This document shows positions 25,401 to 56,458 of a DNA stretch of 56,760 nt, in pieces. A program made the translations under genes and the position numbers. Source of the stretch: Phoronis australis (lineage: Eukaryota > Animalia > Phoronida); contig NMRA01000293.1 in assembly GCA_002633005.1 (NCBI GenBank), positions 489,860 to 546,619 on the forward strand, in the 5' to 3' direction. Every line of letters begins with the position of its first letter. The first letter of the stretch is position 1. Under the pieces are notes generated by a model, which was given only the letters and a program-made list of their open reading frames with translations, was not told the DNA's origin and did no database searches.

Positions 25401-28400
25401 TAGAAGTATAGTGGTGTTTAACAAATTGGGTTTCTTTTAGACAGTCATAACAGAAAAGGGTGTCATTTGAATACTGGGTTATGAAAAGTATGGGTAGTTG
25501 GCCGCTCTATATTTTGAGATTAATTTTTTTGCAAGACGACCCCAAATCGAGTTTCAGTGGAGTGAAAAAAAATCACCTACTTTGCCAATTTTTTATCCAC
25601 ATTAAGTTCTTTAACTGTGTTTTGACGTAGTACACAGCTAGCTGGCTGGTAAGTCAGTGCACAGCTACTGCATCGGAACAGTAACAACCACTCGTGTTGC
25701 ACTCAATAAGCCTAGTGCATTACCAGGTTGGTAAGATCATACAACATCAAGGGTGTGACTTACGACTGAAGACAGACTTTGATCTTATGCTCACACTTCA
25801 CAATTGCTGAATGAAGTTTTAACCATGTCATAACAGTCGAGGAATTATCAATAGTTGTTATCTAGTAGTTATGTGTATATTCTCAAATTAATTGTATATT
25901 TGCTAAAGTGCTAAGGGCTGTTCCAGCAAAATCTGTATGGGAGGGGGGGGAAGGCACTTTTATTTCGTACCCACCGCCCATATTTTTCATTTATTTCTCC
26001 AACCCATGACCCATAATTTTTTAATTATTTTTAATAGGTTAAAATATAAAATCCAACACTTGCAAACAAATTGCCTCCAGGAGGACCTGTTAAGAACTTA
26101 GATGATTGACAGACAAGAACTAGTTGTCTTGTCCAANCTGGGTTATGAAAAGTATGGGTAGTTGGCCGCTCTATATTTTGAGATTAATTTTTTTGCAAGA
26201 CGACCCCAAATTGAGTTTCAGTGGAGTGAAAAAAAATCACCTACTTTGCCAATTTTTTATCCACATTAAGTTCTTTAACTGTGTTTTGACATAGTACACA
26301 GCTAGCTGGCTGGTAAGTCAGTGCACAGGTACTGCATCGGAACAGTAACAACCACTCGTGTTGCACTCAATAAGCCTAGTGCATTACCAGGTTGGTAAGA
26401 TCATACAACATCAAGGGTGTGACTTAAGACTGAAGACAGACTTTGATCTTATGCTCACACTTCACAATTGCTGAATGAAGTTTTAACCATGTCATAACAG
26501 TCGAGGAATTATCAATAGTTGTTATCTAGTAGTTATGTGTATATTCTCAAATTAATTGTATTTTCGCTAAAGTGCTAAAGTATTTTTCAATAATAGTTGT
26601 GTGGAGCGCAAGACCAAATTTGTGACTTAAGGCATATTCTAAGTTACTCTCAGTGCAACATCTCACAGACTGTTAGCTGAGTAAGCATGCAAAATGCATA
26701 TCACTAAAGAGTGATTGGACAGCTTCTGACACAGCTGAATTTTGTCAATATCTGATAATCATAAAAACTTGTGATCTCATTACTGGTAAAGTGCTGATTA
26801 TATAACTGTCCAAATCTTGTGTGAAAAAGGCAAAACGCCACTCATGGGATGGTTGTCTGCAAAAAGTATCTGCACAGACATCAAGTCCTCAGCAGCTCAG
26901 TAGTAAAAGCACTAGACCGGCAATCTAGATACCTGTGATTTGATTCCCAGTTGGGGTTCCTGATCTGTCTCTGTTTATTTGCTTAATTAGATTCACTATT
27001 GGCCAACATTAATGTACATGTATTTACTATAAATATATAAAATTAAATCTAGTTACAAAATACCTGCATTTCCAGCATCTTACAGAATGACCAGACATAA
27101 CTCACGAAGTGCCCTCCAGATTAACATACCTCACGGTTGAGTTTCCTGGCCGCATCCTTGATGTAACGTCGTTCTTCCTCTACATGTACTTTCTGATCAT
27201 GAACTAGCTGCCTCTCGCGTGCCAGTGTCTCTTGGTCTTCAAGTAGGTCATCGTCAAGGAAACGGGGTGAGTTGCCTGGTGACTGGTGGAATGACTGCTG
27301 CAGAGATGACAATGATGAGTAATCGTGGCAACAAACCAAAATGGTGTTGCAATACAGAAAACAACAAAAAATGTTTAGAACGGATAATATTTAATAAGTT
27401 ATACAATCAAGTTGCTGAAAACGAAACCTGCCAGTCAGAAGAGCCAGAGCAATGTCTAATTTAGGAAGGCAGATTATACTGTGAGTGAATACGAACAAGC
27501 ATAACATTTTTAAAGAATTTTGTTTGGAAGAGCAAAGGGCTGGCTAACTACACAATTATTATGTGTAAACTATGAACTCTTTTGTGAGATACAACCTTCA
27601 AAAAATTACATCAGTAAAGCACTGAACATACTCATATGCAAGGCGTATCCAAAACATTTGGCCACTTGCACCTCTGGGGTAGTACAGTTAAAGGCTCAAA
27701 GCACAATATATCCATGATTTTAATTTCAGGATGCTTGATCGCAAGATGGCAGTTTGCAGGTTAAGAAAAAGGTTGGTTCCATGCCTGAACACCAGGAAGC
27801 GGTAGTGGTACATGAGCCTATGATAAGGTTAAGGTTATATAGGATCCTAGAAAACTGTCCAAGTTGCATAAAACAATGTAATAATGTGGCACAAACTCTT
27901 AGTGTTTTCGAGATTTCATCTTGAACATTTATATCAAAATTAAATTTGGTGATATCGATATTTTTGTTTTGCTATGAAATGTACCCTTCTGTTTTTCTAA
28001 AGAGACACAGTCATATGACCTAATCAATGGCAGACTGGTACAAGGCCAATATCAATTTCAAGAAATTCTAATTAAATCAGCTTTTGGCCACAATAAGATC
28101 AAAAAACCGGACGATCGCCACACAAATAAAAAAGTTCATGTTCAATTCAACGTTTCGTCTTTTCATTAGACGTCATCAAAAAAGAAATTCTACATTGATT
28201 TCTAAATATTTATGTTTTTGCATAGTAGTTTTGTGGATATACTTGTGGAAAAGACCCTACACAGCTTTGTTAAGCCACTTCCTACCTGAATCAGTTGCTG
28301 CTGCTGTTTAACTATGCCTTTGTAATACGAGATCTTCTTCATCAACTTGTCAACTTCCCCTTTACTGTCAGTTGGACTGGGTGTCTTGGAAAATGTCCTA

Positions 28401-31400
28401 TTGCATACTGGCCCATTGGAAGGTGTACTAGATGTGCTTTGTGTATCTGAAGCAAACATAATTAACACAGAAACTAAATTACATTATAAATTACAATTAG
28501 GCACATGCGCAACCAGCAAAGTGATGCATTCATTTTTGTAATTTAAGGTGATGTAGGACCACAGAAAAATTTCTAAATTTTTTGACTAACTTCGGAACAT
28601 CGTATCTCATTAATGGCTTAAAATTGCATTCATCTGAAACTTTCAAATGCCATGATTTTTACACTGTTCTCTAACACTGTTAAAAATGGGTTTCAAAATG
28701 TTCCGCTTTTGCAACAGGACTTTGTGATTTTCATTAAACAAATCTAAAGTTCGATAAAATGAAATTTTAGAGAATTGTAACAGTGTTTTTGAAATCTCAT
28801 CATTTACATGGAATGAAATTTGAACAGTCAATGTTACTGGTAACTTTGTTTCATTACCAAATAATATATGACCTTTCTCCTCTGCTAAGTTTTAATAAAA
28901 CAACATGGTCACGTTTCCCAAGTACTGGCCAATTAGTAAAAGTCAAAAATCAAATTCTACAGCCGTTCTACTTTCAAAAAATATATACTTTTACTGAGTT
29001 AAAATCCATAGTTTTCTAGATGTATGTATATAAGGTCCTACACACCCTTAACTCAAAACTGTTGCAGTTTAGAAAGCGCGTTCAAGTTTCCAAGGCCTAA
29101 CTTAGTCTACAAGTGGAACAAAAGTAGCAGCCTGAGGTATTAATAACATACATCCTGGCCTTGTGACAACCAAACCTTACTCATACCCTTAAATTACTGC
29201 AAACTGTACTAACTCAAGTAACTAAGTTAATGACATGCTCTGACACAAGAACTGTTCTCAGGTGGCTATGGAAATCTTTGGTGTGAAAAATAATATTATA
29301 GCACATTTTGAAATTGAGCGCCCTCTACTGTCAGTAAAGTGGCCCCGTAATGGAGGTGTGAGAAAGATCGTCGTCTGCAGATTTTTATAGTAAAACAGTG
29401 CAGGATTACAATTATGTACTTTGTAAATGGGATTTCACTATTCATAAATGTACAGGGCAGTCCACAATAAGCAATCAAATTGCACTATATACCAGTACCT
29501 TTTCCAAAATGCCACAAAGCAATCTTGAAATTGTTGTCAATTTTCCCAAATTTGCTCGATATTTCACTCCAGAACTTTTTTGCAGACATGTTTTCCTGGA
29601 GTACTAAGTTGGAAAATCCTTTAATCAGTGAAAATGTCAAGACAGTACGTTCGGTTATGAACATTTTTGTGTTCTCCAAAATATGAGAAATTACTCAGAG
29701 CATTTCAAGTTTCTAGTAATAAAATGGACTAACCTCGATTTGGTGATTTGGTGGTTGTACGCCCTGATCACAGGGTTACATAATGAGTGTTGGCTTAGAT
29801 GCTAAAAATTTTCATCGAAATTCAACTACTTTCGCCGGAGTTATGGTGGAATCTCAAAAGGAAATCTGATAAAAGATAGATGTTGGAATGCCGTGCACTG
29901 GTAGTTGCTATGTCTTGTAGTGTTCATATTGTTCAAGTTGTCTTTTGTATGTCACTATGTGGTCTCCTGTACAATTTTATTTTAGAACCATCTACATGTA
30001 CTCAGCAGTCTGTAGCACACACTTTACAAAGAGTGCATCGCTTGAAACATGGGGACATTCTATTATATATTTTAGTACCGACGTTTGTCGTTTTAGTTTT
30101 ACTAGTTTTACTATTTGATAAAAGATAACATGACTATTAAAATGATTTTAAAAATTAGGTGAAAATTTTTCCTGCAGATTTTCAATGAGAAAAAAATGAT
30201 GCTCACCTTTATTTTGAAAACTACCGTTTGTCCAGGAAACAGCAGGATGTGATCATTAATATTAAAATGTACCTACTGTCCTTCACTATCACATGGTTTA
30301 GTTGAGTGATTCATTCTTAATAATTAATTACATTCACTATAGTGTGAATAGGTTGAGAGATTCATCGATATTATCAAAACTTTTAGTACTTTCCGTAAAG
30401 CGCCATTTGGTAGAGAGTGATTCAATCATCACACTGTGTATAGGTTCACAACACATTATAACTATAGCCTAAGTGTGCTCTGTTGTTAACAACTTCAGGA
30501 GAAAAACTGTGAGTAATAACATTTCATTCATTACACAAACTAAAAGTTAACTGTGATGCCAGCAGAAAACAACTGGACACAGTGTGAAGGGAAATTAATT
30601 AGCAGAATATAACACTGTCCCTAGACAGCCTCAAGACACAAAGTTAAGTGAAAAACATCAATTGATAAAACTTTACCATGGTTAACACAATTTGACTTTC
30701 TCATGCGCTCTTTCAGTAGCTTCTTTTTCTCATTAAAACTTCTGTGTATGGGATCTCTAACCATCGTATAAGGCATTTGGAAGTGACCTGGAAAAATAAT
30801 ACATTATTAATAATAGAAAGATGGACCTACCATGAGCTCTGTTGCACCAAGGTTATTCTGTGTTTTGAATTTTGAAACAATGTGATTAAACTGTGAGGGA
30901 GCTGCATAAACTTCGAGAATTTTCGTTACAATCTTGGCAAGAGCGTTGGTGCATTTCTAGCCTGTTTTTTAACATAAATTACCCCTACTGAAAACTACCT
31001 CTGTGTACCAGTGGCTGGTTGCATGAAACAATCCCAAATAATTACTCGACTAAGTTCGCTATATCTTTTGCATTAATTGTTATTTCCTCACAGCCGTATC
31101 ATTATCTTTACTTTGAGCTCCTCTTTGACTGATGACACTTTCTAATAACTTAACTAAAAACTGTGCCCTCAATTCAATCGAAACAATTAGGGACATAGTC
31201 CTTAAATTAGGGGTGTTCCATACTTATTTTCAATAATATTGGGAATTCAGCACGGAGTTCACTCTCAATTTAGTAATGATACTCAAACAATAGAAGAAAG
31301 GACATTCAGTTTTTTCACAAGACCACAAACATGCAGATATTTTTAATTAGGAAACTTAGTAGAGTCCCTATTTGGGACTGTTTCATGCAACTGGGCACAG

Positions 31401-34400
31401 TATCCTATTGACTGGAGTTCATGTTAGGTCATCTACAATGTAATAATTACGATTCATGTGACAAAGAGTTGAACACTACAGCTCTGGATTGGTTCAGCCT
31501 AGAGGCCAAGTTGATAAAGTGTGTATTTTAGCAGCCTGCTCAGGAGCTCTTCACTATTTTCATTTCAAAATTTCACCTTATATGACAACACAATGAGAGT
31601 AGTTATGATATATGCAGTCTCAAAAACTGGTAGAGGTTAATGAATATTGTCATTAGATGTATATTTATGATTTCTACTAGACAAATTTATGTTTTCATCT
31701 TCCATGAGTTTTCTAGGATGTAATCTTCATTTACCATGAATTTTTCCATAAATATAAATGTTCTTACGATTAATACCTATCATGAATGCATAAAATCCCA
31801 GTATGAACTTACAAAATGGGTTCTTTTTTCCATCTTATCAAACTTTCCATTGCATGGAATTTTTGTAAACAACTTTCCAGTTTTTCAATGACGACGGTGA
31901 CATAAACTTATCTGTGTCATTTGTACCTTCAGACAAGTCATTGTAATCAGTAGGCGGTGTGGACGGAGATGACGACAGGTTTTCCTCGCTGCACAGTGAC
32001 ACATCATTTGTATCTGTTGTGCTGTTCAAAAGTTCAATCAACTCTCGCTGCATCTCGGCCAAGCTCTGTCGCAAGTCTGAATTCTCTATCATGATCACCT
32101 TCTGCTTTTCTTCATAACTGCTAATCAACAGACGATACATCTCTTCTTCATGTCTAAAAGGACAGCAGTCTTTACACTGACAAGCATACACTATCAGAAA
32201 TTCAGTCTGTATTAAAGACACAATTACAAATCATAACTTATCATTAAGCTTTTAAAAGCACTTTATAATGAAGCAAAGTTAAAGCTGCAAAACAGGTTTG
32301 TCATCAGCTTTCAGTCAAAAACGCTGGTCAATCTAGATCTAACCTAAGCCAATAGTTGGACACTCTCACATTATTGAAGGATAGCCTCAAAGCAGCTGCT
32401 ACAAGTCACAGGTCGATATATAGCTTGTCTACAATAAGGAGTGACCAGATGAATTGCGATGACATCATCAATGGAAATAATAAACAATTTGATACAAGAA
32501 TACAACACAAAAAGGCAGCTGTGGTGTCCAATACAATTAACAATCTTTATGGTAATAATACTGTTAGCGTACTTAGTGGAGCCATTAGTTCTCCATGTTC
32601 CTCGGCGACCATCAGACCTCTGTAAAGTATTCAGAATATCCAGACCTGCGACAAACATTAACACAGACCTCTGTAAAGTATTCAGAATATCCAGACCTGC
32701 GACAAACATTAACACAGACCTCTGTAAAGTATTCAGAATATCCAGACCTGCGACAAACATTAACACAGATCTCATTCAGTAACATCAACTAAGATACAAA
32801 TAGGATTTATGATTTATACTTTATTTGGGCAAAGCCAGGAGTGACCTTTTGATAATGCTTACATGTTCGTGCCAAGGGACAAAACAGCTAGTCTTAACAA
32901 AAATTACACAGAATATTTATTCAATACTGATAACTGTTAATTATCCTGAAATTATGATTTGCACTCAAAGTTTAACATTTTTTTTTTAATTTCCATGTGT
33001 TTACCAGGATACGAGATTAATTTTTTCCATGAATTAGGGAAAAAGCTGAAATGTACACATTAATAATAACGTATTTTGTTTAACAACTGTTGCTGGGCAT
33101 ACTCAATTGAATGAACAAACACCCAAAATGACAATATGACTTTCAGAACGAGCTTTCATATTTAATACCTTATTTTTGATATTCCAGGTTTTCAAGCTTT
33201 CGTGGTCATTTGAAACAACGAAACAAAATTGATAGATTTGAAGAACTAAATTGGCAGGTGTACCGGCCACGGTTTCAGTGTTGATGGAACAATAAATTGA
33301 GCAACACAGGGTAATGAAAGGTACACAACATTAAGATACTTACCCATCCTCCGATCTTGAGATTTATCAGTGAGCAGCTTGTGTAACCGTTCCTTAAGTT
33401 TACATGTCTCCCGTTCTTTCTTCTTTAGCTCGTGCTGAAATTGCATCGTTCTGTGCTGTATCACAGACTGCAATCTCTTGTTCTGCAACATTACAGGCAC
33501 AAATGCATTAGTCATGTCACTCTACATAATTATGATCACTCTTATAATAGAATGATGACCTTCATTTTTTACATTATTTCATAATGAGACAAAAAAGTGT
33601 GATCACTAAAAAATCACTGCTGGAATCAAAAATTTTATAATTTTTGATACCTGCAGTGACAATGGAGTGATGTCATCGTCAATCATGCGACCAAAAGGAC
33701 ACTGAAATGGACAAGAACATAAAATTTTGTTCAGACAAGTGTCAGACACCTTCATCCGTGACAACGGAGAGCAGTTCAGATGATCTGCCAATAGCAGTCA
33801 CTAAAAAGCAGCTGCAGAAAATAAATGCCAAGCAATTATCACAGACACTTTTGAAGGAGTTCAGTGATCTTGTATGTCCCATTCAAGAGCAAGAGGGGGG
33901 CAAGATACCGATAAGTATAACGCAATCTGAGGCGTCAACCAGCAATGAGAAGGACTCAAGGTTGCCTGTGGTTAAGCCAACAAGTTCAAACAACACTAAG
34001 CCAAAGGAAAGCATTGTGGAGAGACTGCTGAGATACATCACACCTAGGTCAGGACCACTTGTAACAAATGCAACAAAGAGCAGCTCTGCAATAGCTAAAG
34101 AACAGAAGAATAAACATAAACTGCCACTGAGTGAATCGGAAAAAACGGCTGATGAAAGCGCGATGAAAACGAAGCACCAGCTGAGTGTGTCGCCCAAGAC
34201 AAACAGGCGAATATCTCCAATAGCTCAAAGAGATAAACAGGTTTTTGATCAGCTTGCAAATGAACCAATAAGTGCAAACGGAGGCAAAATCAGTCCATGT
34301 CCATCTGTTAACATGGTGAATTCAGGTAGTTACATGGGCTCATTTGAGCTGGCGGGGGGCACGTGGACGGAAGAGTGTCTTAAGGATGTCATGCTGTTTA

Positions 34401-37400
34401 GTGGAGAAAAGAACACTAACAAGGGATCAAGGGCAACCATTGGGGTGGGTTCACCTGGGCTTATCACAAAAAACGAACAGGGTAGAGTACAGTCTGTACA
34501 CCATCTTGAGTCTGTAGTACACGTGATGGCAGTAGCAGAGAGAGGATTGTTTGTGTACATCAGGCAGTCACCACAAGAGGGTGTACATAAACTGAGGTGC
34601 CACGTCTACGTCATGGATCAAGCTTCAAATGCACAAAAACTGGTCGATAGCGTGATCACTTGGAAGCAAAAAGGGAAATTTTCAGTGTGACTAGTTTTGT
34701 TACAGCTATATGTATGATTACGTAAAGAGATTGTTGTAATGAAATGTGTTTATAGGACGGATTGGACTCTGATTGAGATTTGTAAAATGATTTTTCCAAG
34801 TAACAACTGAATGCATAATTATACTGATTTATATTGAATTAGATAACCTTTTTTAATATAGTTTAATACAGGAAGTATGCGACACAACTATAAACCTGGT
34901 GTAAACAAAATAATTTTCTTCACAATCATGTTACTTTGCTCTGACTTCTAAAGTAGCATTGAGCTCGCTTGAACTGAGATTAATTTCAACGAAACACCCA
35001 GCTTCATCAACCTGTCGCACAATGTATGTGAAATGGGCACGACAGCGACTATGGTAGATTCTGGCCAAATTTGGACAAAGCAATTGCCAAAATTGATCAT
35101 TCTTCAACTTTCAAAGTCTTCTAACAATGTTATGAATGCCTCTCCCCAAAAATTGCCAAAGACAAAGAACTTAAGAATGATGAAGCAATGAAGCAGTAAT
35201 TTGGCGCTAGTTATCTTTTATGAAAAGAAAAACATAAATTTCACTTCTCCACCATATTGCGTACCACATTTGAGATTTTACTGTACTATAATTATACCTC
35301 TTCTTTTTCACTTCTCAGTTTCATGCCAACAGCCTTTATTTTGTTAAGTAGTTGTCTCTCCTTCTCCTCCAACTGACTATAAGCTCTCTCAGACTGTTCC
35401 AGACTTTCTTTTAGTCTGCTCTGCGTCTTCTGCAAGTGGTTTCTGTCAGCTTCAGTTTTACGGAGTCTAAAAAACACAGCAAATTTGAACATCACAAGAC
35501 ATTTGATATCAAAACTACACCAGAATTATTTAAAACGCTCACAAAATTCCGCAAGCTTTCTTAACTTAAGTGTGATCTGCGACTCTCCTAAATGATACAT
35601 AAAAAGCAAAACAATATGAACGCACACGCACTTGAACACACACCTAGCTCCAAAAAATATTGGGGAAATGAGTTATTCATAAAAATTCCCATATCAAGGT
35701 GAAAATAGCAACTGGTTCCGGGTTTTTTGAGAATTGATGAGGTGATGTGGTACTTTTCCTTGTCCACATTTATAAAAAGAAAGTCACCAGATGCCACCTA
35801 AAATGGGTCATGATCATTTCTTTTTCAATACCAGTATCACCTGATATCAGGTGAAACATGCCAGGATCCTTCTTATTTACTCAGCGTCATCAGATGCCAG
35901 TTGTGAGACACAATGAGTCAGACCATAAACAACTACGGTGTTTTTGTTTGCCTTTACAGTTGAACAGTCATGCAGTGCATCAATTGGAAAATCTAATTAA
36001 AATTCAGTTTGTTAGTCATTAAACTATTGTATGTATCATATACTACTTATAATAACCAACTCCTTCACTAACCACATAATTTTAGCTACAAAATCTTGTG
36101 TGAAAGTGGGGTAGGTCTATTACCTACTCTGCTTCAAATCAAAGAATTTACAGTTACAAACAAAATGCTGTTAGACGTTTTCGATGAAGCTTCTCAAATT
36201 TCAAACAAGAAGAAAAGCCTAAAACAACCATTTTGCAAATTTCAAAGGCTTAGTAAAATGCTGAAATCTCTCAAGTCTTGTTATATACGACGACTGAAGA
36301 GCACACAGTAACTGTGATGTGAAGCTACCTCATAGCATTTTTATTTTTACGAGAACTTTTAACAGACACAAAATATTAAATCTCACTTTTCGACAATATC
36401 AGGTGCTACATTGAAAATTTCTGCCGAATCACCTGTTTTCAAGATCCTCGAAGGATCGCCTGCTGTTTTGGTGTCGCTGCAGCAAGTCATGCGTCACATT
36501 CACCAGGCGAGTGATGTCAAAAGTATCGGAAACATCGTGGAAAATTGACGAGAAACCAAGCACCGTAAGAGTCTGAAATATAGAAAAGTGCAAAATGACA
36601 AAAATATAATACCATGTGTAAATTCAACAAACAAAAACATTTTTGTGAGTTTGCATTTCAAATTTTTAGTAATTACACGTCTGCTGATTGACCTCATTGG
36701 TTACGTTTGTGGCACACTGTTCCTCTGATCACAGCTTTACATTACTTCCAGCTGCTTTCGAGTAATTTTTCAGTTTTTATCTTTTTACCCAACAGTAGAT
36801 ATTTCACATGTAGAGCATTCAACCCTGTGTGAAGCAAAGAGAGCCTAGACCGGCCATCGCCTGGCTTATAAGTGCTTCCTCAGAACAACTTCATTGCATA
36901 TCGTAATGATGAAACATATGCTAATTAATTTTGTACTATCTTGCGATCAAACTTTAGTCCATTACACGAGGACCTCAATTGTTTTTATTCGTCAAAGATT
37001 TCACAAAAAATCTTAAGTGTTCAAACTGTGTAGACAAGCCCCCAGACTAAGAAACAGGAGTGAAGCATATCTAAAGGAAACGTTTCCGTCTAAAACCATT
37101 TTGTTTTTGAAAGATTCTCAGAGTTTTTGATAGTTGTCAGCTGTAAAAGAACTGTTTGTTTGCTAACCATGTTATAACATAAAGAAGGCATATACAGGTG
37201 ATTCCAACCAATCTATGTCGACTAATGATGGATTAGAATTGCCAAAACTCCACCTGTGACTAATTTCAAGCAAAGTAGCATGACACTTGATGTTGACATC
37301 ACAAGTCCCAGGAATGTTAAGACATGGTTAGATTACTCAATACAAGTTTGAAATAACTACCACCAACATTTCTCGGCAACCATTCTGGTGTCTGTTTCAT

Positions 37401-39269
37401 AAAAAGTCTGATATAACATGCCCGCATTTTGAGAACCAGTTCATGCCCGTTATTCAGTGGAGAAAACTGGTTATCAAAATGCAGGCACGCTATGTCAGAC
37501 TATTACCATATCACGACTGTTACCGTAACACATCTGCATTAACAAACAATTTATAAGATTCTACACTTTGTACTTTGCTGAAAAGTGATTTTTTTTCTGA
37601 AATACTTCTTTGGAGAATAAGACAGAATTTCTGAATATGTCTTGCTTCTCGTTCACACACCAGACCCGTAGTTTTGATATTTGTTACATTTTATGCACGT
37701 TCACATTACTTTGAAGTCAATAAATATCAAAATATCAACTACTGGCAAGTAGTGTACAAGCTAGGGGAGAGGTTATACTAGTTTTGATTTTTGGAGCAAA
37801 TGTGTCACAGTTTCACTAAAACTTGCCAGAAAAATAGTTACAGTACCCATCAAAATAATGAGACAAAATGACCCAGAATTCCCTGTCATTATGGCCAAGT
37901 ACAAACGGAATTCATCACCATAGTAACTCTAATGAACAGTTCTCATATATAATGGTGGGTAATTGCCCGTGGGGGAGGGGGGGAGCGACATGGACTTTTG
38001 TAAGCTAACTTTTAGGATGTACTGTAGTGTGCAGAGTTGCAGTATGTACAATGTTGATAAACCAATGAGGAAAATTCTGGAAAGGTTACCATCCTAAAGA
38101 ACAACAACTCACTAAATATAGCTCTTGTAGACTTTGCTTGTTAACTTCTGTTTAAAATGTCATTGGGAACCAAGCACTTATTTATTTCCGCTGCATGAAC
38201 AGAACATTTCCACCTGAAGACTGATGTATGAAGACATCCTTCATGCTGTTGTGCGGCTCAACTTCCAAGTGCCAGCATGTTTACATAGCCTTGTGAAACT
38301 AAACATTCAAACTCGTATAACTCTTGTAGGTTTAGTCCACCAAAAGTGGCTTTGAACTTGTTATTATGATGATCCAGGAAACAGGCTTAACTCTGAACAC
38401 AGAGAACTTTGAACACAAAGTTTCGGTCACAGGTGAAACTAAACAGTTAAACTACACACAAAAGGCTATAACTTGGAAGTTTTTGAAGGTTTCATTAATC
38501 AATAAGTTGGTAAATGAATTGTCCATAAATTGCATGTTTTCAAAATCATACAAGACATGCTCTTTTAAGCATACAAAAGAGTACAAACATATTTTGAGTT
38601 CTTAACTACAGTGCAAAAACCAACAGCTGATGCAGTGTACCCACAGAAAGCGTTCATTATTGTGTCATGTGACTGGTCTATTTTTAATGGAATTCTCAGT
38701 CCCATATTCAAATTTCAGGGTTGGTTAACCCCAATAAAATTGATGATTTCCCGCTGTATTTCTTGACTGTTTAAGAGTTTGTGTGTTCTCCTTGACAACA
38801 TAAAATAAGTCTTACCATGGCAAGGCCATTTATGAAACCGATTTTTAAGTAAAAGGTCCATTTTCATTTTCAGCCATTCTGTACAGGCCCTCACTTTTCT
38901 AACCTTTAAGAAGACCTCCACAGACAAACCCAAGTGCCTCATTAAAAGTACCTCCAAAGTGTTGATTTCCTCTACCAAAGATGATTTCCATCAACCCTGT
39001 CTCCAACATATGTTTCTATGCTTTTGAAAATGCCAATAATTGATGTTCAAACCACAAACCTCATTTAAGTAGGACAGACACTGGTCCAGATTATCTTTTG
39101 AACAAAAGTTTTGATTCAAGTCCAGACCATCCAATTTCTTTGGTGATGGCGTAAACTGCAACTGGGTTGAATAGTCGCCACAGTGCCTCGGGGTGGCGCT
39201 CTTGGCAGTGTAGAGAGCAGCGAAGTCACAATATCCATCGTCATCATTGTGTTTGTTCCAATTAGACAT
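19287..39269 (-). CDS. SSX2IP: Afadin- and alpha-actinin-binding protein (SSX2IP/ADIP-like), 12 coding exons
   Basis: Exons in transcript order: 39269-39060, 36572-36433, 35466-35298, 33482-33344, 32645 (or 32696/32747)-32573, 32153-31927, 30787-30677, 28446-28286, 27297-27130, 23269-23194, 22396-22267, 19482-19287. All are GT-AG and phase-consistent, 1800 nt with the shortest exon 5. The coiled-coil protein carries recalled SSX2IP motifs: FCSKDNLDQCLSYLNETLTVLGFSS, QFQHELKKKERE..KLKERL, DGRRGTW, EEMYRLLISSYEEKQK..MIENSDLR, FQMPY and RKAFEEEKAS...QFMQMTPF. Confidence 0.92.
20075..22254. mobile_element. hAT-like non-autonomous DNA transposon spanning the N-gap, 5-bp TSD CTCTA
   Basis: Perfect 16-bp TIR CAGTGGCGGATCTACG (from 20075) / CGTAGATCCGCCACTG (to 22254), with G/C-rich subterminal regions. 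CTCTA flanks both ends (20070-20074 and 22255-22259). Confidence 0.8.
20499..21138. other. Assembly gap
   Basis: Run of N. Confidence 0.99.
22267..22396 (-). CDS. SSX2IP: SSX2IP coding exon 11
   Basis: ctgcag|...GA|gtgagt; encodes PSFSAAPS...TPATGELYRTLGL. Confidence 0.82.
23194..23269 (-). CDS. SSX2IP: SSX2IP coding exon 10
   Basis: tttcag|AGA...G|gtaatg; encodes RKAFEEEKASILSKQFMQMTPF. Confidence 0.9.
25474..26578. repeat. 441-bp allelic duplication around a single N
   Basis: 25474-25914 versus 26138-26578, with a few substitutions and an N at 26137. Confidence 0.9.
25915..26136. mobile_element. Second, near-identical copy (left end only, cut by an N) of the 17645-18471 MITE
   Basis: TAA followed by GGGCTGTTCCAGCAAAATC...; nearly identical to about 17645-17865. 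Confidence 0.88.
26885..26958 (+). mobile_element. Degenerate tRNA-derived (SINE-head-like) sequence
   Basis: A-box-like AGCTCAGTAGTA, a CTAGA/TCTAG stem with a 7-nt loop, and a decayed B-box GATTTGATTCCC. Confidence 0.4.
27130..27297 (-). CDS. SSX2IP: SSX2IP coding exon 9
   Basis: ctgcag|CAG (NAGNAG acceptor)...GAG|gtatgt; encodes FLDDDLLEDQETL...EEERRYIKDAARKLNRE. Confidence 0.88.
28286..28446 (-). CDS. SSX2IP: SSX2IP coding exon 8
   Basis: cttcag|...CAG|gtagga; encodes ...EVDKLMKKISYYKGIVKQQQQLIQ. Confidence 0.87.
28547..29047. mobile_element. Kolobok-type non-autonomous element, TTAA TSD
   Basis: TTAA|GGTGATGTAGGACC ... GGTCCTACACACCC|TTAA (imperfect 14-bp TIR). Related fragments lie at about 2800-3498, 13250-13462 and 27829-28080. 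Confidence 0.7.
30677..30787 (-). CDS. SSX2IP: SSX2IP coding exon 7
   Basis: ttccag|...G|gtaaag; encodes GHFQMPYTMVRDPIHRSFNEKKKLLKERM. Confidence 0.87.
31012..31397. mobile_element. Harbinger-type MITE, CAG TSD
   Basis: Imperfect ~45-bp TIR: ...GTTGCATGAAACAATCCCAAATA / TATTTGGGACTGTTTCATGCAACTGGGCA. CAG lies on both flanks. Confidence 0.72.
31927..32153 (-). CDS. SSX2IP: SSX2IP coding exon 6
   Basis: ttttag|A CAT GAA...G|gtacaa; encodes HEEEMYRLLISSYEEKQK... Confidence 0.9.
32573..32747 (-). CDS. SSX2IP: SSX2IP coding exon 5 (three possible in-frame acceptors: exon start 32645, 32696 or 32747)
   Basis: gtcgcag|GTCTGGAT occurs three times; the core encodes LDILNTLQRSDGRRGTWRTNGST; donor AA|gtacgc. 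Confidence 0.8.
32613..32769. repeat. Perfect 51-bp triplication spanning an intron/exon boundary
   Basis: Units start at 32613, 32664 and 32715. Confidence 0.97.
33344..33482 (-). CDS. SSX2IP: SSX2IP coding exon 4
   Basis: ttgcag|AAC...G|gtaagt; encodes NKRLQSVIQHRTMQFQHELKKKERE. Confidence 0.9.
33707..34690 (+). CDS. Intronless 327-aa protein with a C-terminal PTB/PID-like domain, nested antisense in an SSX2IP intron
   Basis: This is the longest real ORF in the window. It has a disordered S/T/K-rich N-terminus. The last ~120 aa show the PTB pattern YMGS...(helix)...IGVGSPGL...HHLESVVHV...LFVYI...LRCHVY...NAQKLVDSV. A candidate upstream acceptor (tttttgatacctgcag) ends at 33656. Confidence 0.75.
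   Translation: MDKNIKFCSDKCQTPSSVTTESSSDDLPIAVTKKQLQKINAKQLSQTLLKEFSDLVCPIQEQEGGKIPISITQSEASTSNEKDSRLPVVKPTSSNNTKPKESIVERLLRYITPRSGPLVTNATKSSSAIAKEQKNKHKLPLSESEKTADESAMKTKHQLSVSPKTNRRISPIAQRDKQVFDQLANEPISANGGKISPCPSVNMVNSGSYMGSFELAGGTWTEECLKDVMLFSGEKNTNKGSRATIGVGSPGLITKNEQGRVQSVHHLESVVHVMAVAERGLFVYIRQSPQEGVHKLRCHVYVMDQASNAQKLVDSVITWKQKGKFSV
35298..35466 (-). CDS. SSX2IP: SSX2IP coding exon 3
   Basis: ttttag|A...GAG|gtataa; coiled coil. Confidence 0.88.
36433..36572 (-). CDS. SSX2IP: SSX2IP coding exon 2
   Basis: tttcag|ACT...AG|gtgatt; encodes TLTVLGFSSIFHD...FEDLENR. Confidence 0.88.
37405..37501. repeat. Short palindromic element (37-bp arms), MITE-like
   Basis: AGTCTGATATAACATGCCCGCATTTTGAGAACCAGTT / AACTGGTTATCAAAATGCAGGCACGCTATGTCAGACT. 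Confidence 0.75.
39060..39269 (-). CDS. SSX2IP: SSX2IP coding exon 1
   Basis: Acceptor tttttctag places the exon start at 39281; ATG at 39269; donor GAG|gtttgt. Confidence 0.87.
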
Positions 39270-39897
39270 CTACGCAGCTACCTAGAAAAATACATAATAC
39301 ACTGGCATGAAGCATAATTATTGCAAAATCCAAAACAATTCAATAAAATCATGAAGTACTACTACTAAATATATTATTTGTTGGGGTTATTAGCGACATT
39401 GAAACCTATTGCAAGTATGGTAGTTATTTTAATATCCTTTTAGTCACTAAATTCTGCTCTTCTGATCATGTGCTCATATTTTCTCTAGTAGTCTGTAGAC
39501 GTGTCAACTCCTACAACCATTAATTAGAGATCTTCACACAATGCATACACCTTGTATGTCTAGTGTTTTCAAAGGCTAAAATGTTCACTGCTATTAATAT
39601 TACATGTCATTTGAATGAGCTTTAGCCAGTACAAGCTGACACACAGCTTGATATAACCTAATCACCTTGCTTTGCACTAAGAATGACTGCTTATGACCAC
39701 AGAATATGATATCTTTACCAAAATGTAATATAATTGTCCCTGTATCCATTCTAATCATCTCCTGGATGTTTTTTGAAAATCTCTTTGTGATATGGCTAAA
39801 GAAGTGGTAGCTAACTGACTGATCGAAGATTTAACATACAAAAAAGCCAAAACATAACCCTGACATTTCATAAATTTTATCTCATGTAGTGAGATAA

Positions 39898-40027
39898 TAA
39901 AACCATTATTAACTTTCACATTTGGTCAATATGTTGTTTTTCAGACCCCAAAATGTGGTAATGACTCCAGCTCTGCCTTCGTCTGAGAAACAACATATTG
40001 ACCAAAGGGAAAGTCAATAATTGTATA
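39898..40027. repeat. Short palindromic element (~45-bp arms)
   Basis: TTATTAACTTTCACATTTGGTCAATATGTTGTTTTTCAGAC / GTCTGAGAAACAACATATTGACCAAAGGGAAAGTCAATAA. Confidence 0.75.
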
Positions 40028-40072
40028 AAATTAAAACTTATGTTATTTGTTTTCTATGTAAATGAAATAAAA

Positions 40073-40143
40073 GTGATATTGATGAGATAAACCATAAGGC
40101 AGAGTGGGGTGATATTGATGAGATAAACCATAAGGCAGAGTGG
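40073..40143. repeat. Tandem duplication with a 36-bp period
   Basis: GTGATATTGATGAGATAAACCATAAGGCAGAGTGG occurs twice. Confidence 0.9.
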
Positions 40144-43100
40144 AAAATCATTTTCAAGGCAACACTTTTTACATTTGAGTCGAAATGGTTCTGAATGTTT
40201 AGTAAATGAATTGCTGCTACCGGTCAGTAAAACAATAAAAAATTAACATTAAAGGTAAAGATTATATTTTGGCAGTGCATAATCAACATATTTCAGTAGA
40301 ACAGGTCAATGCATATTAGTTTTTCTATTTACTTTCTTGGCTCTTTTAATGAAAAACGAATGAAATGAGATCTGACCACGTGAAAATTGTCTGAAATAAT
40401 CCCAGCATTTTAATCAGACAAATTAGTGCCTGGAATTTTTTTTGAAATCAGGCACATATTTGCCAGAACACTAAGTGCTATCAAATTTCGCAGGATCAAT
40501 TCCACATTTGTTTAATTAATAAACTGTGCAAGTCAAACTGATCTGACCAATAGGTGAGAGTATTGCAAGTTGTGCTCTGAAGCCTATTTATTCAGATTTC
40601 ACCAGTCCCAGACACAGATGTCTGATAAGGGTGTCTTCAAGGCCTGGTTATAGGGGCTACACAACTTGCTGTGGGATTCTTAATCACATGGAGTCACTAT
40701 AGATTAGCAGAAATAAGAAATAATTCCTATAAAAAGAATCCTGCATCATCTCAGTGATTTTGATATACATGGGAACACAGCAACTATCACCATCAACTAC
40801 TAATACGATACGACTAAACCTACTACATGTAACTCTAGGGCACAGGGTTAAGAATGGGTGAATAATGATGTCCTATCTTCTACTTAAGCTGATTTTACAC
40901 AGGGAACAGTTGTGATGGTACTCCACTTTAGTTGCATTTACATGACATTATATTGTAAACTGGATCAGCATGAGTCATTTACATGAAGACTGTCTGCGCA
41001 TGCTTGCATAATTAATAACTATAGCAAATGTCCAAACCAGGAGTAACGCTACGTAGGGGATCACCCGTATACATGCTACTGTGCAAGCATAACAGAGATG
41101 ATCCTTTCTGCCTTGTACCATTTTGTGTTAAGACGTGTTACTGCAACTGAAGCAACTGATGGAGTACAAGCTGCTCCATGCAACTTTGTGTCAGTGGTGT
41201 TTACACACAGTTGGCACCCAATCAGCTGTTCAGTGTTTGTTGCTCCGTGACAACTGTGTCCCATGTAAATGCGGCTTAAGAAAGGACACTCGTGCAGTCC
41301 ATGAAGAAGGAGGACTGTCTATCTTGTACCAGTTTGTATCACTGTTCTTTGGCCATGACATGACACTGACCATAGTGAAAACCAGTAAAACTCACGATCA
41401 CTTTGAAAACAGATAATGTAGTTCTCAAGGTATGAAAGAGTAACCAAAGTTGATCAGTCACAGTTCATCCTTAATGGTTAGGTATATCATTAAAACAACG
41501 TTCTTCATCATTAATGTATTGTGAAATGTCCTTCATCCTGTGACCTGTGACAACATCACAATGTTAAAGCACAAGCTGGGTTATTTTTGTCTTTCGTGCG
41601 TAATTCTGCTTTCCTTGTAGGTAGCGTGCGTGCGTAATGACAGGTGTTTACAGCAACAATGGAATTCTAATTAAAAAACAGTTTTTATGGTAGCGGTACC
41701 ATTCTCTTAATCAAGATTATGTGGTTTCTTGTACTGTTGTTTGCTGCATCACTGCAGGTGTTTTGAAAAATATGGTTGGTGACAGAGAAAGGGAAGGGGT
41801 TGTTTACAACAACAGTATTGGTTCCAAGTAAAAACAGTGTACTCACGGTAATGTATTTTTTGTATTGTTTGTTTCATCACTGCAGAGGGGAGGGTTTGAA
41901 AAGATGATGGATGATGACAGAGGGGGATAGGGTTGGACGTCGGGTGATGTCATCAATTGTTACAAATACATTAACAGTGCTGAAGTCAAAATTTTGAGAA
42001 TAAAGGCTTTAGTACTGCAAAAAATCTCAAATTTCGACAGTGAAATTTCCAGAAATAGGCAATTGGATGTCTCAAACTCAAAAATACTGGAATAGATGGC
42101 AAATTATCCATTCTGAAATTTTGGAATCTAACTGGTAGATTGTGGTTGTACTTTGCATATCGTCACCGGTCATCTGGAATCTTGTGTGAATTGGGAGTAA
42201 ATTGGTGATTAATTTACAACTTGGTTACGAATTTGAACAATGTGTGCAAAGCACCATTCGAGAGACCCATGAATTCCAATAGGGTGTGATCATTATCGAT
42301 TGTTTAATCATTCATGGTGAATGATTGGAGACATAGGTGTTGTCATAAAACAGTGATCTTTTTACTGATACTTAACGATCATCTCCTTCAATTATGAGAT
42401 GAAAAAACACTTAATTCCATGTCCACTTTCAGACTCTGTAGATTGGAAACACAGTGACTGAAGAGAAATATGGTGAACGCCAAAATCAACCTTGTTGTAA
42501 AAATAACAAAAAGAAAATTACAATTTTTGCAGGACTTTCCATTGCAGGAATTTCTATGTCCCTAATTCTAGAGACTGTCCCAAACAGGAAAATTTTTACC
42601 TGAAAAATTTACCTGTGGATTATAACTAACCTTGATTACGTAACTGCCAGGCTATTTTAAAGGAGGGTCCTTTTGTCATCCAAACAGAAAATCAAGTAAT
42701 GGGAACGTTTACTTAACCCTTTCAATATAAATACTGATAGTGGGGTGGGATGGTGGGGGTTAGGGCTAGGCCACAGCAGGTAATGACAAAGGTGGGTACA
42801 GGGCAAAGGTGGCAAATTTAAGATGATGTACTAACAATTTAAAATGTTCTTTTCCACATGGTGTCAGAATTTGCCTTTTTATTCCTTCACATTTCCAAGA
42901 TGTGAATTAAGTACACTAGTAGACAAAGCTGGTTGAATTTCCACACTCGATTGTATTAACACCAGCATTGAGATGCCTGAATTATTTCAAACATGAAGGC
43001 AACACATTTAAAAAGACATGGGTGAGTAGAGAGCATGTCACCACACCCCAATGCACCACAACATACTCTAACAATGACAGAGGTCCATTATAACAATAGA

Positions 43101-46100
43101 GGTCACAGGACACCTTGAAATGGGATCAAGGATAAGCTAATCCCTGCATTGATAGTTATTGATTTAATTGCAACCTTGTGATAACCTTTTGGAACATTAG
43201 CACATTATTGTACCATAATCCACATCTTCCTCACATAGGCTAAAAACACTATGAAACTTTAAACATAAGAAACCAGCTGTGAGATCTTAAATCTTTAAAA
43301 AGTCCATCCAGGAACCTTTACAGATACTGATAATGAATTATTATCAGCATTTGTTTAATTCTTAGGTGTAATGCTTATCTCTTCCACCAATGGCTCGAGA
43401 AGGCAAGAAATGATCAAAGTAACCACTTTCTGGACACTAACAGGTGCCGTGGTGTTGCAACTTTCTCATAAAGAAATATGTCTTTCTTTAAAAATGGAGT
43501 TGAGGAAAATCTCACCTTTTGCTGATAAGTTTCACTATCACTGATTGAAGAAACTGTTCAGAGCTCACCAACTGCAAACAATTCTTGACTACTAACACCT
43601 CTAGATTGATGATGTATGATAAACCCATGTGCACCTGTTGCCCACTAACCACAACACACCTGAATAAAATCACTGAAACCAGTCACCAGTGCACAAAAGA
43701 CAGAAGCACTTATACAGGTACCTCCAGTCACTCTGGTGGGACATTTCACAGTAGGGATTCATGCCCTGAAAAGGGTACAGCAATTAGGTAAAGGGGTAGG
43801 GTTACATTTGCCTTGTGCATGGAATAGAAAGCTTGAAGCCCCAGGGTTTAATGGCAATAACAAAAACTTCACCTGCCACACAATGAAAAAGGTTAGAGTT
43901 ACCAAGGCTGGAGTTTAGTTACCTTTTAAAAATAACAATAACACCATTACAAGTCACTGCCTTGAAGAGATAACCCCCAAAAGGTTTGTCATATTTATAG
44001 ACTTTCAAGAGGAGGTCTGAAAGTGGAAGTTTCTAAATGAGAATATTGGTTCCTGGTTCAAATGCACCAATAAGATACATACAGTGCTCCAATAAGACAT
44101 GTTCATAAAGTCTCAAGGCAGCTCCAACCCAGCCTTTAACCAATCACCAATAAGCTCAAAGCTGCTCACACAAGCAGAGAGGTCTATTTATTTGTTCTAC
44201 ATTAATGAACACATGTAATGGCACATACTATGTAACAGAAGCCCCAATCAAAACATCTACCTACAGCACATGATAGGGGGTAGCATGTGGTGGTAGAGTT
44301 GTTGCAGGTTCCAATCTAAACATCCACCCACAGGACTGGAGGCAGTGTTGTGCCCTTGTGGTAGAGTTGTTCCAAATCATATAGGAAAGTGGACCATGTA
44401 GGAATTCATACTTAGCGTAACAACATAGGAATTGTAAAGTGTGATATCAAAATAGTGTTCACCTTTGCAAGTTCAAATATCAACTGTATGTAAATATAAA
44501 TCGCTCATTAAGCATACGATGTTGTGGCATGATCACTAATATTCTACCGGAACTTGTTTAAATCTTGATTTTGAGTTCCGCCATGTAATCTGTATTAATG
44601 ATTGATCTTCGCAGTCAAAACAAAATGATACCTTTCAGAGTAAACACAATACACCAAAGTGATAAAAATGCAAAAAAGTAACATTCTCCTTCAGGACCTC
44701 TTTTAGTTCACTGGCAGTCAATCTAGTTTGGTGTTTGTTTAAAGTAAGACAACATCATAACAATAACACATTTCTGCCAGTTACAATGAGAAAGTACAAA
44801 CATCTTTCATTTTAACAGATGTTCAAAATGATTTTTATATCATACCCATAAAGATCATGACACCCCAAATTGTTGCGCTATGTAGAAATTACTGCATTGT
44901 TCTGAGCAATGTAAAAATACTCCTCTATCATGAAAATTCCTACATGGTTCAGAATAGAGTTGCTCCTGTCTCATCGTGGGCTCAAATCCCGCTAGACCAC
45001 ACTGTGGGACACTAGAGTAAGGCAACACCTACATGTATCATGTGTACGCTCCATAGCTCACTTGTGAGTTATTTCTCAAGCACAAAATGTATTGTTATGT
45101 AGGAGTACTGTTCAAACTAAAAATGAATTTAAACTACTATGGCTGTGAAGTATTATGATACAATTAGAGTACAAATAACACATGGTGAAACTTCACCCAT
45201 TTAGGACACTATATCATTATGGTGGACAGGTGAAATTGTATGTTCTCACATTTCCATTAAAGATAGATGGTGCCAAATTGATGCTTTGCCATATCCATGT
45301 TCTGCACCACAGATACCAACAGACAATATTATGAAAAAATGTTGTCATTCACAGCAATGCAAGAAGACCTTGAAAAGCGAAGAAAAAGCTATTATGGAAA
45401 TTATTTTTGTCTGAAATTGGTCAGGTTTTACCTCAGTCCTGCCTTCTGGAGCAGGGAAGGCTGTATATAGAGATGAAAATGAATAATTTTTCATGATGTT
45501 CTGGTAGAAAATTCAGTCACAGGTACAGTAGGTACACCAAGGATATCAGGAAATCCATCTTTTTAAATGGGATCCGCTCAAAAGACGGAACTTGGACTAC
45601 TAGAACAAAACTAAAGAGACTATCACCTTAGTAACACAAGCATGCTAACTGAAGGAACAAAGTACATGCCCTTTTTAAAACTTTTTGATCCCGAAAATGA
45701 ACCATTTTCAGCTGTATTGAATTAATGATGAAAAGACACACTTTTGTATGTAAATTGTGGTAAGTCACGCTCTACAACTTTAGAACCATGAATTACCAAT
45801 GCTCTGTACCAAACATACACATGTGGACATTCTTGGCAATGTTGGAAACCTTGAAAAATTAGAAAAGGAGTACGGGGGGGGGGGGTANATGTTGTCGGGC
45901 ATTGGTGAGAATTTACCATATGACCATTTAGGTCAATGAATTTTTGTCACAGATTCAAGATCCAAAATTAGCATAAAAAACAAGTTTTTCAGTTTCCATT
46001 ATGTCACCAGAGATATTACCGTTCAACCTTGAAACCATGGATATCGACCTTGAGACTATGGACATTGATAGGTTTCCCAAAGATAAAAATTCAATTAGAA

Positions 46101-55657: not shown

Positions 55658-56458
55658 ATGCCACACTGTTGCTGCGTACCAGGATGTACTAATTATCGGT
55701 GCACGCGCGCTTTGGGAGTACCTTTGCATCGCTTTCCGATGGATGACACACTTCGCCGTACTTGGCTCGTTCGTGTGAAGAACGCAGCGTTACCCGTCCA
55801 CGCAACGTACAAACCAGTGGAGAATTACCGTGTGTGTGGCAAGCACTTTCTGCCGTCCGATTACGAAAGGGATTTGTACGCTGAACTGATGAAGGTCCCT
55901 GCGAAACAACGTCTGAAGAAGGGTGCCATTCCGTCTGTGTTGATTCCCGGCAGTGCCCCGTTACCACCCCCGAGAAGAGCGTTTTTGGAGCGAGAAGCCT
56001 CGCGAGCTGTGGCCAGTACAGTGACTGGAGCCAGTGGAGGCACTTCATCTACTGTCACCCGTGCCTCCGAACGTACCCCAGAGCGTGCAATTCCTGGAAC
56101 CAGTGGTGATTCGCCCTGTGCTGTTTTCTCCAGCCCAGAGCCTCTAAGCAACCCTGCAGCGATATTGAGTAGTGGGAGTGATTACAGGCTCAGTTCGACA
56201 CCCAGTGAAGAGGACAGTTCGTCGTCCAGTAAACAGATCGGTGAGTCAAACTTTGATAAGTTTATTGTGGACTTGTCTAAAGTGTTGGAGCTATTTAGAA
56301 GGTACCAGGTGTGTGACGAGGGAGTCACACGACACGATGTAAGCAGTTTGGGTGCTCAGGTCACCATCCAGTGGGAGTGTGTCGCGGGACACTGGCAAGT
56401 GGGACAGTTGTTCCTCTGTCCGTGGTATGCCGGAGGTCCACTTAACCTTGTCCAGTAG
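55658..56458 (+). pseudogene. THAP-domain transposase N-terminal part (frameshifted and truncated)
   Basis: THAP C2CH signature: CCVPGC...LHRFP...W...VCGKHF...LKKGAIPS. Downstream is KFIVDLSKVLELF..YQVC...WECVAGH. An apparent 2-bp loss at about 56390 shifts the continuation TGKWDSCSSVRGMPEVHL into another frame. No DDE core is present. Confidence 0.82.

What the first reader, a model, noticed from the sequence alone, without database searches (positions are those of the whole stretch)
33707..34690. Intact intronless PTB-domain gene hidden antisense inside a 1.8-kb SSX2IP intron
Seen: a stop-free 984-nt ORF fills over half of intron 33483-35297 on the opposite strand, with no TIRs or transposase motifs. 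Its C-terminal ~120 aa carry the PTB/PID pattern (YMGS, LFVYI, LRCHVY, AQKLV), preceded by about 200 aa of disordered S/T/K/P-rich sequence. Known: PTB-only adaptors such as PID1 and FAM43 exist, but this sequence is too divergent for me to name. Inference: a lineage-specific, possibly retroposed adaptor gene whose transcription overlaps SSX2IP in antisense.
Basis: partly seen in the sequence, partly recalled or inferred. Interest (0 to 1): 0.8.

Follow-up and report, generated by a model that had tools for sequence, protein, structure and literature searches.

The report
Orphan PTB adaptor inside SSX2IP intron
An intron-free gene sits backwards inside an intron of the centrosome gene SSX2IP in an invertebrate, is transcribed from its own strand, and encodes a protein predicted to end in a PTB docking domain with no sequence relative found, so it is likely a far-diverged receptor-tail adaptor in a common kind of nested gene.

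Summary
Confirmed. A stop-free 327-codon ORF (33707-34690, +) lies inside intron 33483-35297 of a minus-strand SSX2IP/ADIP gene; 17 spliced reads confirm that intron. Two of three stranded RNA runs cover the ORF on its own strand, unspliced, at about 17x and 11x, similar to the host exons. In the third run both genes are off. Read variants are 9 synonymous to 7 non-synonymous (p 0.009-0.024). Residues 202-327 give a low-confidence model (pLDDT 53) whose top 15 structural matches are all PTB domains (Z up to 12). Residues 1-201 are predicted disordered. No sequence relative was found among 1.84 billion protein representatives. The neighbouring HMGXB4 gene is closest to the brachiopod Lingula. 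Best reading: a real nested gene for a divergent Dab-like PTB-only adaptor that likely binds NPxY-type receptor tails. Retroposition, lineage restriction, copy number and ligand are untested, because no genome or orthologue was available. Extra: the strongest hairpin of the window sits just upstream of the RNA start. The scan's notes hold similar nested intronless genes in other genomes, with different domains. New member of a known kind.

The parts
33707..34690 (+). Intronless ORF, 327 aa, of the nested gene
   Evidence: unspliced stranded reads
33707..34309 (+). N-terminal arm, residues 1-201: predicted disordered, S/T/K/P-rich, with short predicted helices at 33-38, 46-53, 103-111 and 171-184
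   Evidence: pLDDT under 50 throughout; synonymous excess p 0.01-0.03
34310..34687 (+). PTB/PID domain, residues 202-327 (core about 207-322): strand, helix, beta sandwich, long C-terminal helix
   Evidence: weak Pfam PID_2 (E 0.14)
33670..34840 (+). Approximate extent of the nested RNA. The 5' end lies between 33641 and 33686; the 3' end lies in 34761-34840. No AATAAA or ATTAAA follows the stop
   Evidence: (80-nt bins; reads cover 33686)
33670..33705 (+). Short upstream ORF (ATGs at 33670 and 33685) ending one base before the main ATG; the 33685 ATG is absent in 4 of 4 reads over it
33602..33671 (.). 70-nt imperfect palindrome (core hairpin 33614-33659) with a TATA-like AT-rich centre, directly upstream of the RNA start
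   Evidence: z -7.5; strongest of 2791 windows
33483..35297 (-). SSX2IP intron (GT..AG, 1815 nt) that hosts the gene
   Evidence: 17 spliced reads; ends
33344..33482 (-). SSX2IP exon downstream of the host intron (end of the ADIP domain)
35298..35466 (-). SSX2IP exon upstream of the host intron (middle of the ADIP domain)

Best explanation
This is a transcribed, single-exon gene nested on the opposite strand inside an SSX2IP intron, and its 327-residue product is predicted to be a PTB-only adaptor that likely docks on NPxY-type receptor tails. Shown: the ORF, the host intron, unspliced + strand RNA from about 33670 to 34800, and a synonymous excess among alleles. Predicted: a Dab-like PTB fold at residues 202-327 behind a disordered arm. 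Inferred from the PTB family: the groove between strand beta5 and the C-terminal helix binds an unphosphorylated NPxY/F-like peptide, possibly with membrane phosphoinositides. The Ser/Thr-rich arm would carry phosphorylation sites and short motifs that recruit a second partner, so the protein would act as a non-catalytic linker or competitor in receptor trafficking or signalling, like ICAP-1 or PID1. Inferred origin: an old copy of a PTB gene (retrocopy about 50%, DNA-level copy or relocation about 40%) that landed in the intron, survived because the opposite strand does not disturb host splicing, and took a local promoter, probably at the AT-centred palindrome. It has since diverged beyond recognition by sequence search.
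For: ORF far beyond chance. Strand is set by an internal control: all 17 host junction reads have the first mate on +, while ORF reads have it on -. Mean depth over 33721-34680 is 16.5x (X1) and 10.7x (X2), against 0.7x for the other strand in X1. Coverage falls to zero before both host exons and there is no joint inside it. The 16 alleles in the ORF are 9 synonymous and 7 non-synonymous, against 4.2 synonymous expected from matched substitutions (p 0.009; 0.024 if the tri-allelic site counts once); 9 lie at codon position 3 and 1 at position 2; none is a stop or indel. Fold: all 32 Foldseek rows shown are PTB domains, best ARH 3so6 at E 9e-4, TM 0.64. In the unbiased search of 48,161 chains, rows 1-15 are PTB domains (ARH Z 11.9, rmsd 3.5, 123 aligned; APPL1 11.8; AIDA1 11.4), and FERM, IRS and PH domains follow at Z 8.3 or less. 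ESM Atlas: the first hit for the domain scores 0.90 (PID_2 49%, PID 29%), and 9 of the 10 listed clusters carry PTB-type Pfam families. Binding mode: PMC3507883 and PMC3938774, passages. Opposite-strand bias and fast evolution of nested genes: PMC3814207.
Against: The domain model is weak: pLDDT 52.9, pTM 0.55, single sequence, and the other four models score 33-38. The full-length model is under 50 almost throughout. Pfam gives no hit on the whole protein and only PID_2 at E 0.14, below cut-off, on the domain. The PDB sequence search finds no PTB domain. The full-length Atlas recognition value, 2253, is under the 2300 mark. The synonymous excess is not significant in the PTB part alone (3 of 6, p 0.23). 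Absence of stops among 16 variants is expected about half the time by chance. No protein-level evidence, and no ligand was tested. No retrocopy hallmark. In Drosophila only 16.67% of young opposite-strand nested duplicates are RNA-based (PMC3814207 section 5).
Confidence: 0.68

Rival explanations
1. The gene and PTB fold are real, but the groove has been repurposed. The protein binds a non-NPxY partner, for example a centrosome, cilium or germline protein, or acts as a decoy, and its extreme divergence reflects fast, tissue-restricted evolution.
For: Identity to the solved PTB domains is at most 21%, and no sequence relatives were found. Numb and tensin2 PTBs are known to bind non-NPxY ligands (PMC3507883 passages). 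The nested gene is on and off with SSX2IP in 3 of 3 raw-read runs. Nested genes in flies are fast-evolving and testis-enriched (PMC3814207).
Against: No partner was identified. Three runs of one study cannot separate co-regulation from shared tissue or chromatin. Nested and host genes are usually functionally unrelated (PMC4394429 passage).
Confidence: 0.2
2. It is a transcribed retro-pseudogene or antisense non-coding RNA whose frame has not yet decayed.
For: Upstream ATGs could damp translation. No protein evidence. No homologs.
Against: Synonymous excess over the ORF and within the arm. A copy young enough to be intact by chance should have a near-identical parent, yet lowering the read threshold from 93% to 90% adds no depth (17.3 against 17.0 in X1, 11.7 against 11.7 in X2). 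The ORF has exon-like GC, 0.445 against 0.33 in the flanks.
Confidence: 0.04
3. It is cargo of a transposon or virus, one of many dispersed copies, and the palindrome is a relic of the element's end.
For: A strong 70-nt palindrome lies at the 5' edge. Copy number could not be counted. Polymorphism in reads is about 1.5%, which could include near-identical paralogs.
Against: No matching arm at the 3' side and no TIR pair. No second copy in the window. No transposase Pfam hit. No viral fold match with E under 0.1 and no pattern match in viral contigs. Reads are strand-specific and lack the loose ends that pile up on the repeats elsewhere in 26000-44000.
Confidence: 0.05
4. The ORF is the last exon of a longer + strand or trans-spliced transcript, joined at the acceptor-like TTTTTGATACCTGCAG ending at 33657.
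For: An acceptor-like sequence is present in the DNA. Coverage at the 5' end is low, so a very short leader could be missed.
Against: No joint or loose end there. In X1 the number of partly laid reads (16) equals the 16 at the host junction. Coverage tapers rather than ending sharply, and + strand RNA depth is near zero over 31409-33640. An in-frame stop precedes the ORF at 33668-33670, so the protein would be unchanged.
Confidence: 0.03

Closest known systems
Dab-like PTB domains: ARH/LDLRAP1 (PDB 3so6), APPL1 (2ej8, 2ela), AIDA1 (2m38), Fe65-PTB1 (3d8d), GULP1 (6itu), Numb (5njk)
   Same: Predicted fold over the whole domain: Z 11-12, rmsd 3.2-4.0, 113-123 residues aligned, including the N-terminal strand and helix. 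No catalytic domain.
   Different: Identity is only 12-21%, and no sequence search links them. The rows are tied, so no parent family can be named. ARH, Numb, Dab and GULP carry the PTB at the N-terminus with clathrin/AP-2 motifs behind it (recalled); here the PTB is C-terminal and no clathrin box, DPF/DPW, Yxxphi or dileucine motif was found.
PTB-only adaptors with an N-terminal arm: ICAP-1/ITGB1BP1 (PF10480; PDB 4dx9) and PID1 (PF14719 PID_2)
   Same: Layout of a Ser/Thr-rich or disordered arm followed by a C-terminal PTB (their layout is recalled). ICAP-1 and PID_2 clusters appear in the Atlas lists. ICAP-1 aligns at Z 10.7. PID_2 is the only PTB-type Pfam hint. PID1 is an adaptor controlling LRP1 trafficking (PMC6771607 passages).
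   Different: The arm is about 200 residues, longer than in ICAP-1 or PID1 (recalled). No Pfam threshold is met. Orthology is not shown.
Nested single-exon opposite-strand genes (e.g. OMG, EVI2A and EVI2B in NF1; Drosophila nested genes)
   Same: An independent transcription unit wholly within one host intron, on the opposite strand. About 10% of fly genes and 1% of human genes are nested, two-thirds of them antisense (PMC4394429 passage). In flies 71.27% are opposite-strand and 37.41% of those are single-exon (PMC3814207).
   Different: The host intron is small (1.8 kb) and about two-thirds of it is covered by the nested RNA. No paper holding SSX2IP, 'nested gene' and 'intron' together was found.

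Membership tests
PTB/PID domain (PH superfold) | Beta sandwich of about seven strands packed on a long C-terminal helix | tested here: met
   The model has six strands of 3 or more residues and a C-terminal helix at 306-322. The top 15 of 48,161 chains are PTB domains. The model is of low confidence.
Dab-like PTB class | Long helix after the first strand, in contrast to IRS-like PTB and PH domains | tested here: met
   Strand 207-215 then helix 220-231. Dab-like rows score Z 8.5-11.9, Shc 8.9, IRS-1 8.0, and PH domains 7.7 or less. Class definition from PMC3507883 and PMC3938774.
Dab-like PTB class | Binds unphosphorylated NPxY/F peptides in the beta5 / C-terminal helix groove | not testable with these tools
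   No residue-level structural alignment or binding assay was available.
Pfam PID (PF00640) / PID_2 (PF14719) | Score above the gathering threshold | tested here: not met
   PID_2 scores 12.5 bits against a cut-off of 25.4; PID is not listed.
PID1, FAM43 or ICAP-1 orthologue | Significant reciprocal sequence similarity and grouping in a tree | tested here: inconclusive
   No hits, so no alignment or tree could be built. Atlas hits to these families score 0.81-0.90 and are leads only.
Nested gene | Own transcript lying wholly within one intron of a spliced host gene | tested here: met
Retrogene | No introns in the coding region | tested here: met
   Continuous reads and no joints.
Retrogene | Genomic poly(A) remnant and target-site duplication | tested here: inconclusive
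   No A or T run of 7 or more in the intron, and the 10-nt flanking repeat is at chance level. Such marks decay in old retrogenes.
Retrogene | An intron-containing parent gene elsewhere in the genome | not testable with these tools
   No genome is held; no paralog in the window.
DNA transposon / MITE cargo | Paired terminal inverted repeats, a transposase, or many copies | tested here: inconclusive
   No TIR pair or transposase; genome-wide copy number could not be tested.

The most novel reading that the evidence does not exclude
The gene founds an unrecognised, lophophorate-restricted PTB subfamily. It is switched on from a palindromic promoter inside the SSX2IP intron together with its host, and serves as a new adaptor for centrosomes, cilia or germ cells that binds something other than NPxY tails.
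Probability: 0.12. Interest if true: 0.62.

Novelty: new member of a known kind. Interest (0 to 1): 0.36.

Why it matters
It is a real signalling-type gene that annotation misses: Pfam, PDB sequence search and 1.84 billion protein representatives give nothing, and only fold-level methods see the PTB domain. It shows that PTB repertoires of invertebrates are undercounted and that nested intronic genes are one hiding place. It also gives a compact test case for transcriptional interference, since the nested RNA and its host are at similar levels in the same samples. Both the architecture (nested, antisense, single exon) and the protein class (PTB-only adaptor) are already known, so no new mechanism is shown.

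Tried and rejected
Homolog searches were blank. Residues 195-327 against 5.8 billion clusters: 26 candidates, none at E 1 or better, lengths 179-573 only. The domain against 1.84 billion representatives: 0 at E 0.001. Exact look-up: absent. Metagenome contigs: 0 of 205 pattern hits confirmed. Viral contigs: no pattern match. Earlier scan notes by sequence: none. These are single-sequence searches and do not prove the gene is an orphan. Orthologous intron: no genome is held; an SSX2IP exon found 0 of 56 protein candidates and 0 of 517 metagenome stretches. The PDB sequence hits to prenyltransferases (E about 0.5) and the Pfam lci and FAM153 hits were rejected as chance. Viral fold library: best E 0.11. 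Target-site duplication at 33549/35174 rejected as chance. Rfam: 5 sub-threshold matches, all on the palindrome, read as a generic hairpin. The run search listed no RNA holder by shared words; the four runs came by species label. X4 contigs show host exons but nothing on the nested gene; the tool warns that contigs can be filtered out, so this was not used. No complex prediction was run because no candidate partner was justified. Paper searches for a prior description were blank: SSX2IP + nested gene + intron, 0 papers; none of the 15 listed of 102 retrogene papers held 'PTB domain'; none of the 10 listed of 202 held FAM43A; none of the 10 listed of 424 phoronid/brachiopod papers held 'PTB domain'; Lingula + PTB domain gave 2 papers, the 1 listed being on Mint. 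No supplements were read; genome-paper gene tables could list this gene.
Full report
Observation. The frame at 33707-34690 (+) reads ATG to TGA, 327 codons, with no internal stop. It is the longest gap-free frame of the window. None of 2000 shuffles of the intron reached its length, and the seven other host introns examined reach at most 91 codons. GC is 0.445 in the ORF against 0.33 in the rest of the intron and 0.43 in the host exons. The host gene is SSX2IP: three minus-strand exons match Pfam ADIP in profile order, one of them above the curated cut-off. RNA reads give eight GT..AG host introns from 27295 to 39059, including 33483-35297.

Expression. Four runs with the same species label were laid: three stranded raw-read runs of one study (X1-X3) and one contig set (X4). 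All 17 reads across the host intron have the first mate on +, which fixes the library orientation. In X1 and X2 the ORF is covered by reads of the other orientation at a mean of 16.5x and 10.7x, against 10-16x for the flanking host exons. Coverage begins in the bin 33641-33720, ends in 34761-34840, contains no joint, and does not reach the host exons. X3 has 2 reads on the whole 2.4-kb stretch, so both genes are off there. With three runs of unknown tissue, this cannot separate co-regulation from shared tissue. X4 shows nothing on the ORF and was not counted. No AATAAA or ATTAAA follows the stop codon.

Coding constraint. The reads differ from the assembly by 16 alleles at 15 sites in the ORF, listed at 10% or more and 3 reads or more. 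Nine are synonymous and seven non-synonymous, mostly conservative. Placing the same substitution types at random gives 4.2 synonymous on average: p 0.009, or 0.024 if the tri-allelic site counts once. The N-terminal arm alone gives p 0.010 to 0.030; the PTB part alone, 3 of 6, is not significant. No stop or indel was listed, but that alone is weak, since random variants would include a stop about half the time. Lowering the read threshold from 93% to 90% did not add depth, so no expressed paralog at 90-93% identity is evident.

The protein. Residues 1-201 are polar and predicted disordered, with a few short helices. Pfam finds nothing on the whole protein and only PID_2 at E 0.14 on residues 202-327, and the PDB sequence search finds no PTB domain. 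A single-sequence AlphaFold model of 202-327 is of low confidence (pLDDT 52.9; the other four models 33-38) but has the order strand, helix, five strands, long helix. All 32 Foldseek rows shown are PTB domains. In an independent search of 48,161 chains, ranks 1-15 are PTB domains, led by ARH (Z 11.9, rmsd 3.5, 123 aligned), APPL1, AIDA1, Fe65 and GULP1; FERM, IRS and PH domains follow at Z 8.3 or less (second look). The ESM Atlas, a separate line of evidence, puts a PID_2/PID cluster first at 0.90, and 9 of its 10 listed clusters carry PTB-type families; the full-length query agrees at 0.87. I put the PTB fold at about 90%. The leading families are tied, so the parent cannot be named.

Relatives and host. 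No sequence relative was found. The neighbouring HMGXB4 gene is closest, among named proteins, to the brachiopod Lingula anatina (about 80% over the HMG box; 5 hits among 10 candidates). The animal is therefore probably a lophophorate or near relative; this rests on one small search. No genome is held and no orthologous intron could be fetched. 'Lineage-specific' thus means only 'not found by single-sequence search'.

Origin. The coding region has no intron, but there is no poly(A) remnant, and the one 10-nt flanking repeat is at chance level. There is no TIR pair, transposase or viral fold. Retroposition stays plausible but unshown. In Drosophila 37.41% of opposite-strand nested genes are single-exon and only 16.67% of young opposite-strand duplicates arose through RNA (PMC3814207, section 5 read). 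A 70-nt palindrome at 33602-33671 lies directly before the RNA start. It is the strongest hairpin among 2791 windows, has a TATA-like centre (motif recalled), and has no copy in the window. A promoter role is inferred from position only. Short upstream ORFs lie in the leader, and one of their ATGs is absent from 4 of 4 reads.

Mechanism. Dab-like PTB domains bind peptides, mostly unphosphorylated NPxY, in a groove between beta5 and the C-terminal helix, often also bind phosphoinositides, and occur in non-catalytic adaptors (PMC3507883 and PMC3938774, passages). I therefore commit to a PTB-only adaptor that docks on receptor tails and uses its long arm for regulation and a second partner, in the manner of ICAP-1 or PID1 (PMC6771607 passages for PID1; their layouts are recalled). 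No clathrin or AP-2 motif was found in the arm, so a classical endocytic role is not supported. The main rival is a repurposed groove, perhaps tied to the centrosome role of SSX2IP (PMC3704989 and PMC4472012, search listing and start of abstract only). Nested genes are, however, usually unrelated in function to their hosts (PMC4394429 passage).

Novelty and verdict. Nested antisense single-exon genes are common, and the scan's own unchecked notes hold three similar cases in other genomes with other domains. No description of this gene turned up. What is unusual is the depth of divergence and the upstream palindrome. Verdict: new member of a known kind, interest 0.36.

Noticed in passing
window 33602-33671: A 70-nt imperfect palindrome, the most stable DNA hairpin of 2791 60-nt windows. 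It folds at about -30 kcal/mol as RNA on either strand. It is pre-microRNA sized but has a 4-nt loop, and gives only sub-threshold Rfam hits. It could be a promoter element, an intronic pre-microRNA of SSX2IP, or a small transposon relic.
   Followed up: partly
window 33685-33687: An upstream ATG of the assembled allele is absent in all 4 reads that cover it, so the leader's upstream ORFs differ between alleles.
   Followed up: partly
window 32613-32773: A 51-nt tandem repeat (3.2 copies, 99% alike) copies the splice acceptor and start of an SSX2IP exon. The listed joint uses only the copy at about 32645, so alternative acceptors are possible.
   Followed up: no
window about 3800-15317 (+): An HMGXB4 gene: HMG box at 11657-11803 and C-terminal exons at 14465-14560 and 15150-15317. 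The best named match is Lingula anatina (about 80% over the box), which suggests a lophotrochozoan, probably lophophorate, host.
   Followed up: partly
window 55649-56458 (+): A THAP-domain ORF (Pfam E 3e-15) that runs into further frames near the window end; probably a THAP/P-element-type transposon or a derived gene.
   Followed up: no
window 37405-37490, also about 26000-26136, 27830-28180 and 31240-31400: High-copy repeats inside or near SSX2IP introns, with heavy pile-ups on both strands and many loose ends. The one at about 37420-37480 is palindromic, like a MITE.
   Followed up: no
window 5009-5857 and about 20500-21140: A 425-nt tandem duplication at 99% identity and an assembly gap of N; the duplication may be an assembly artefact.
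   Followed up: no
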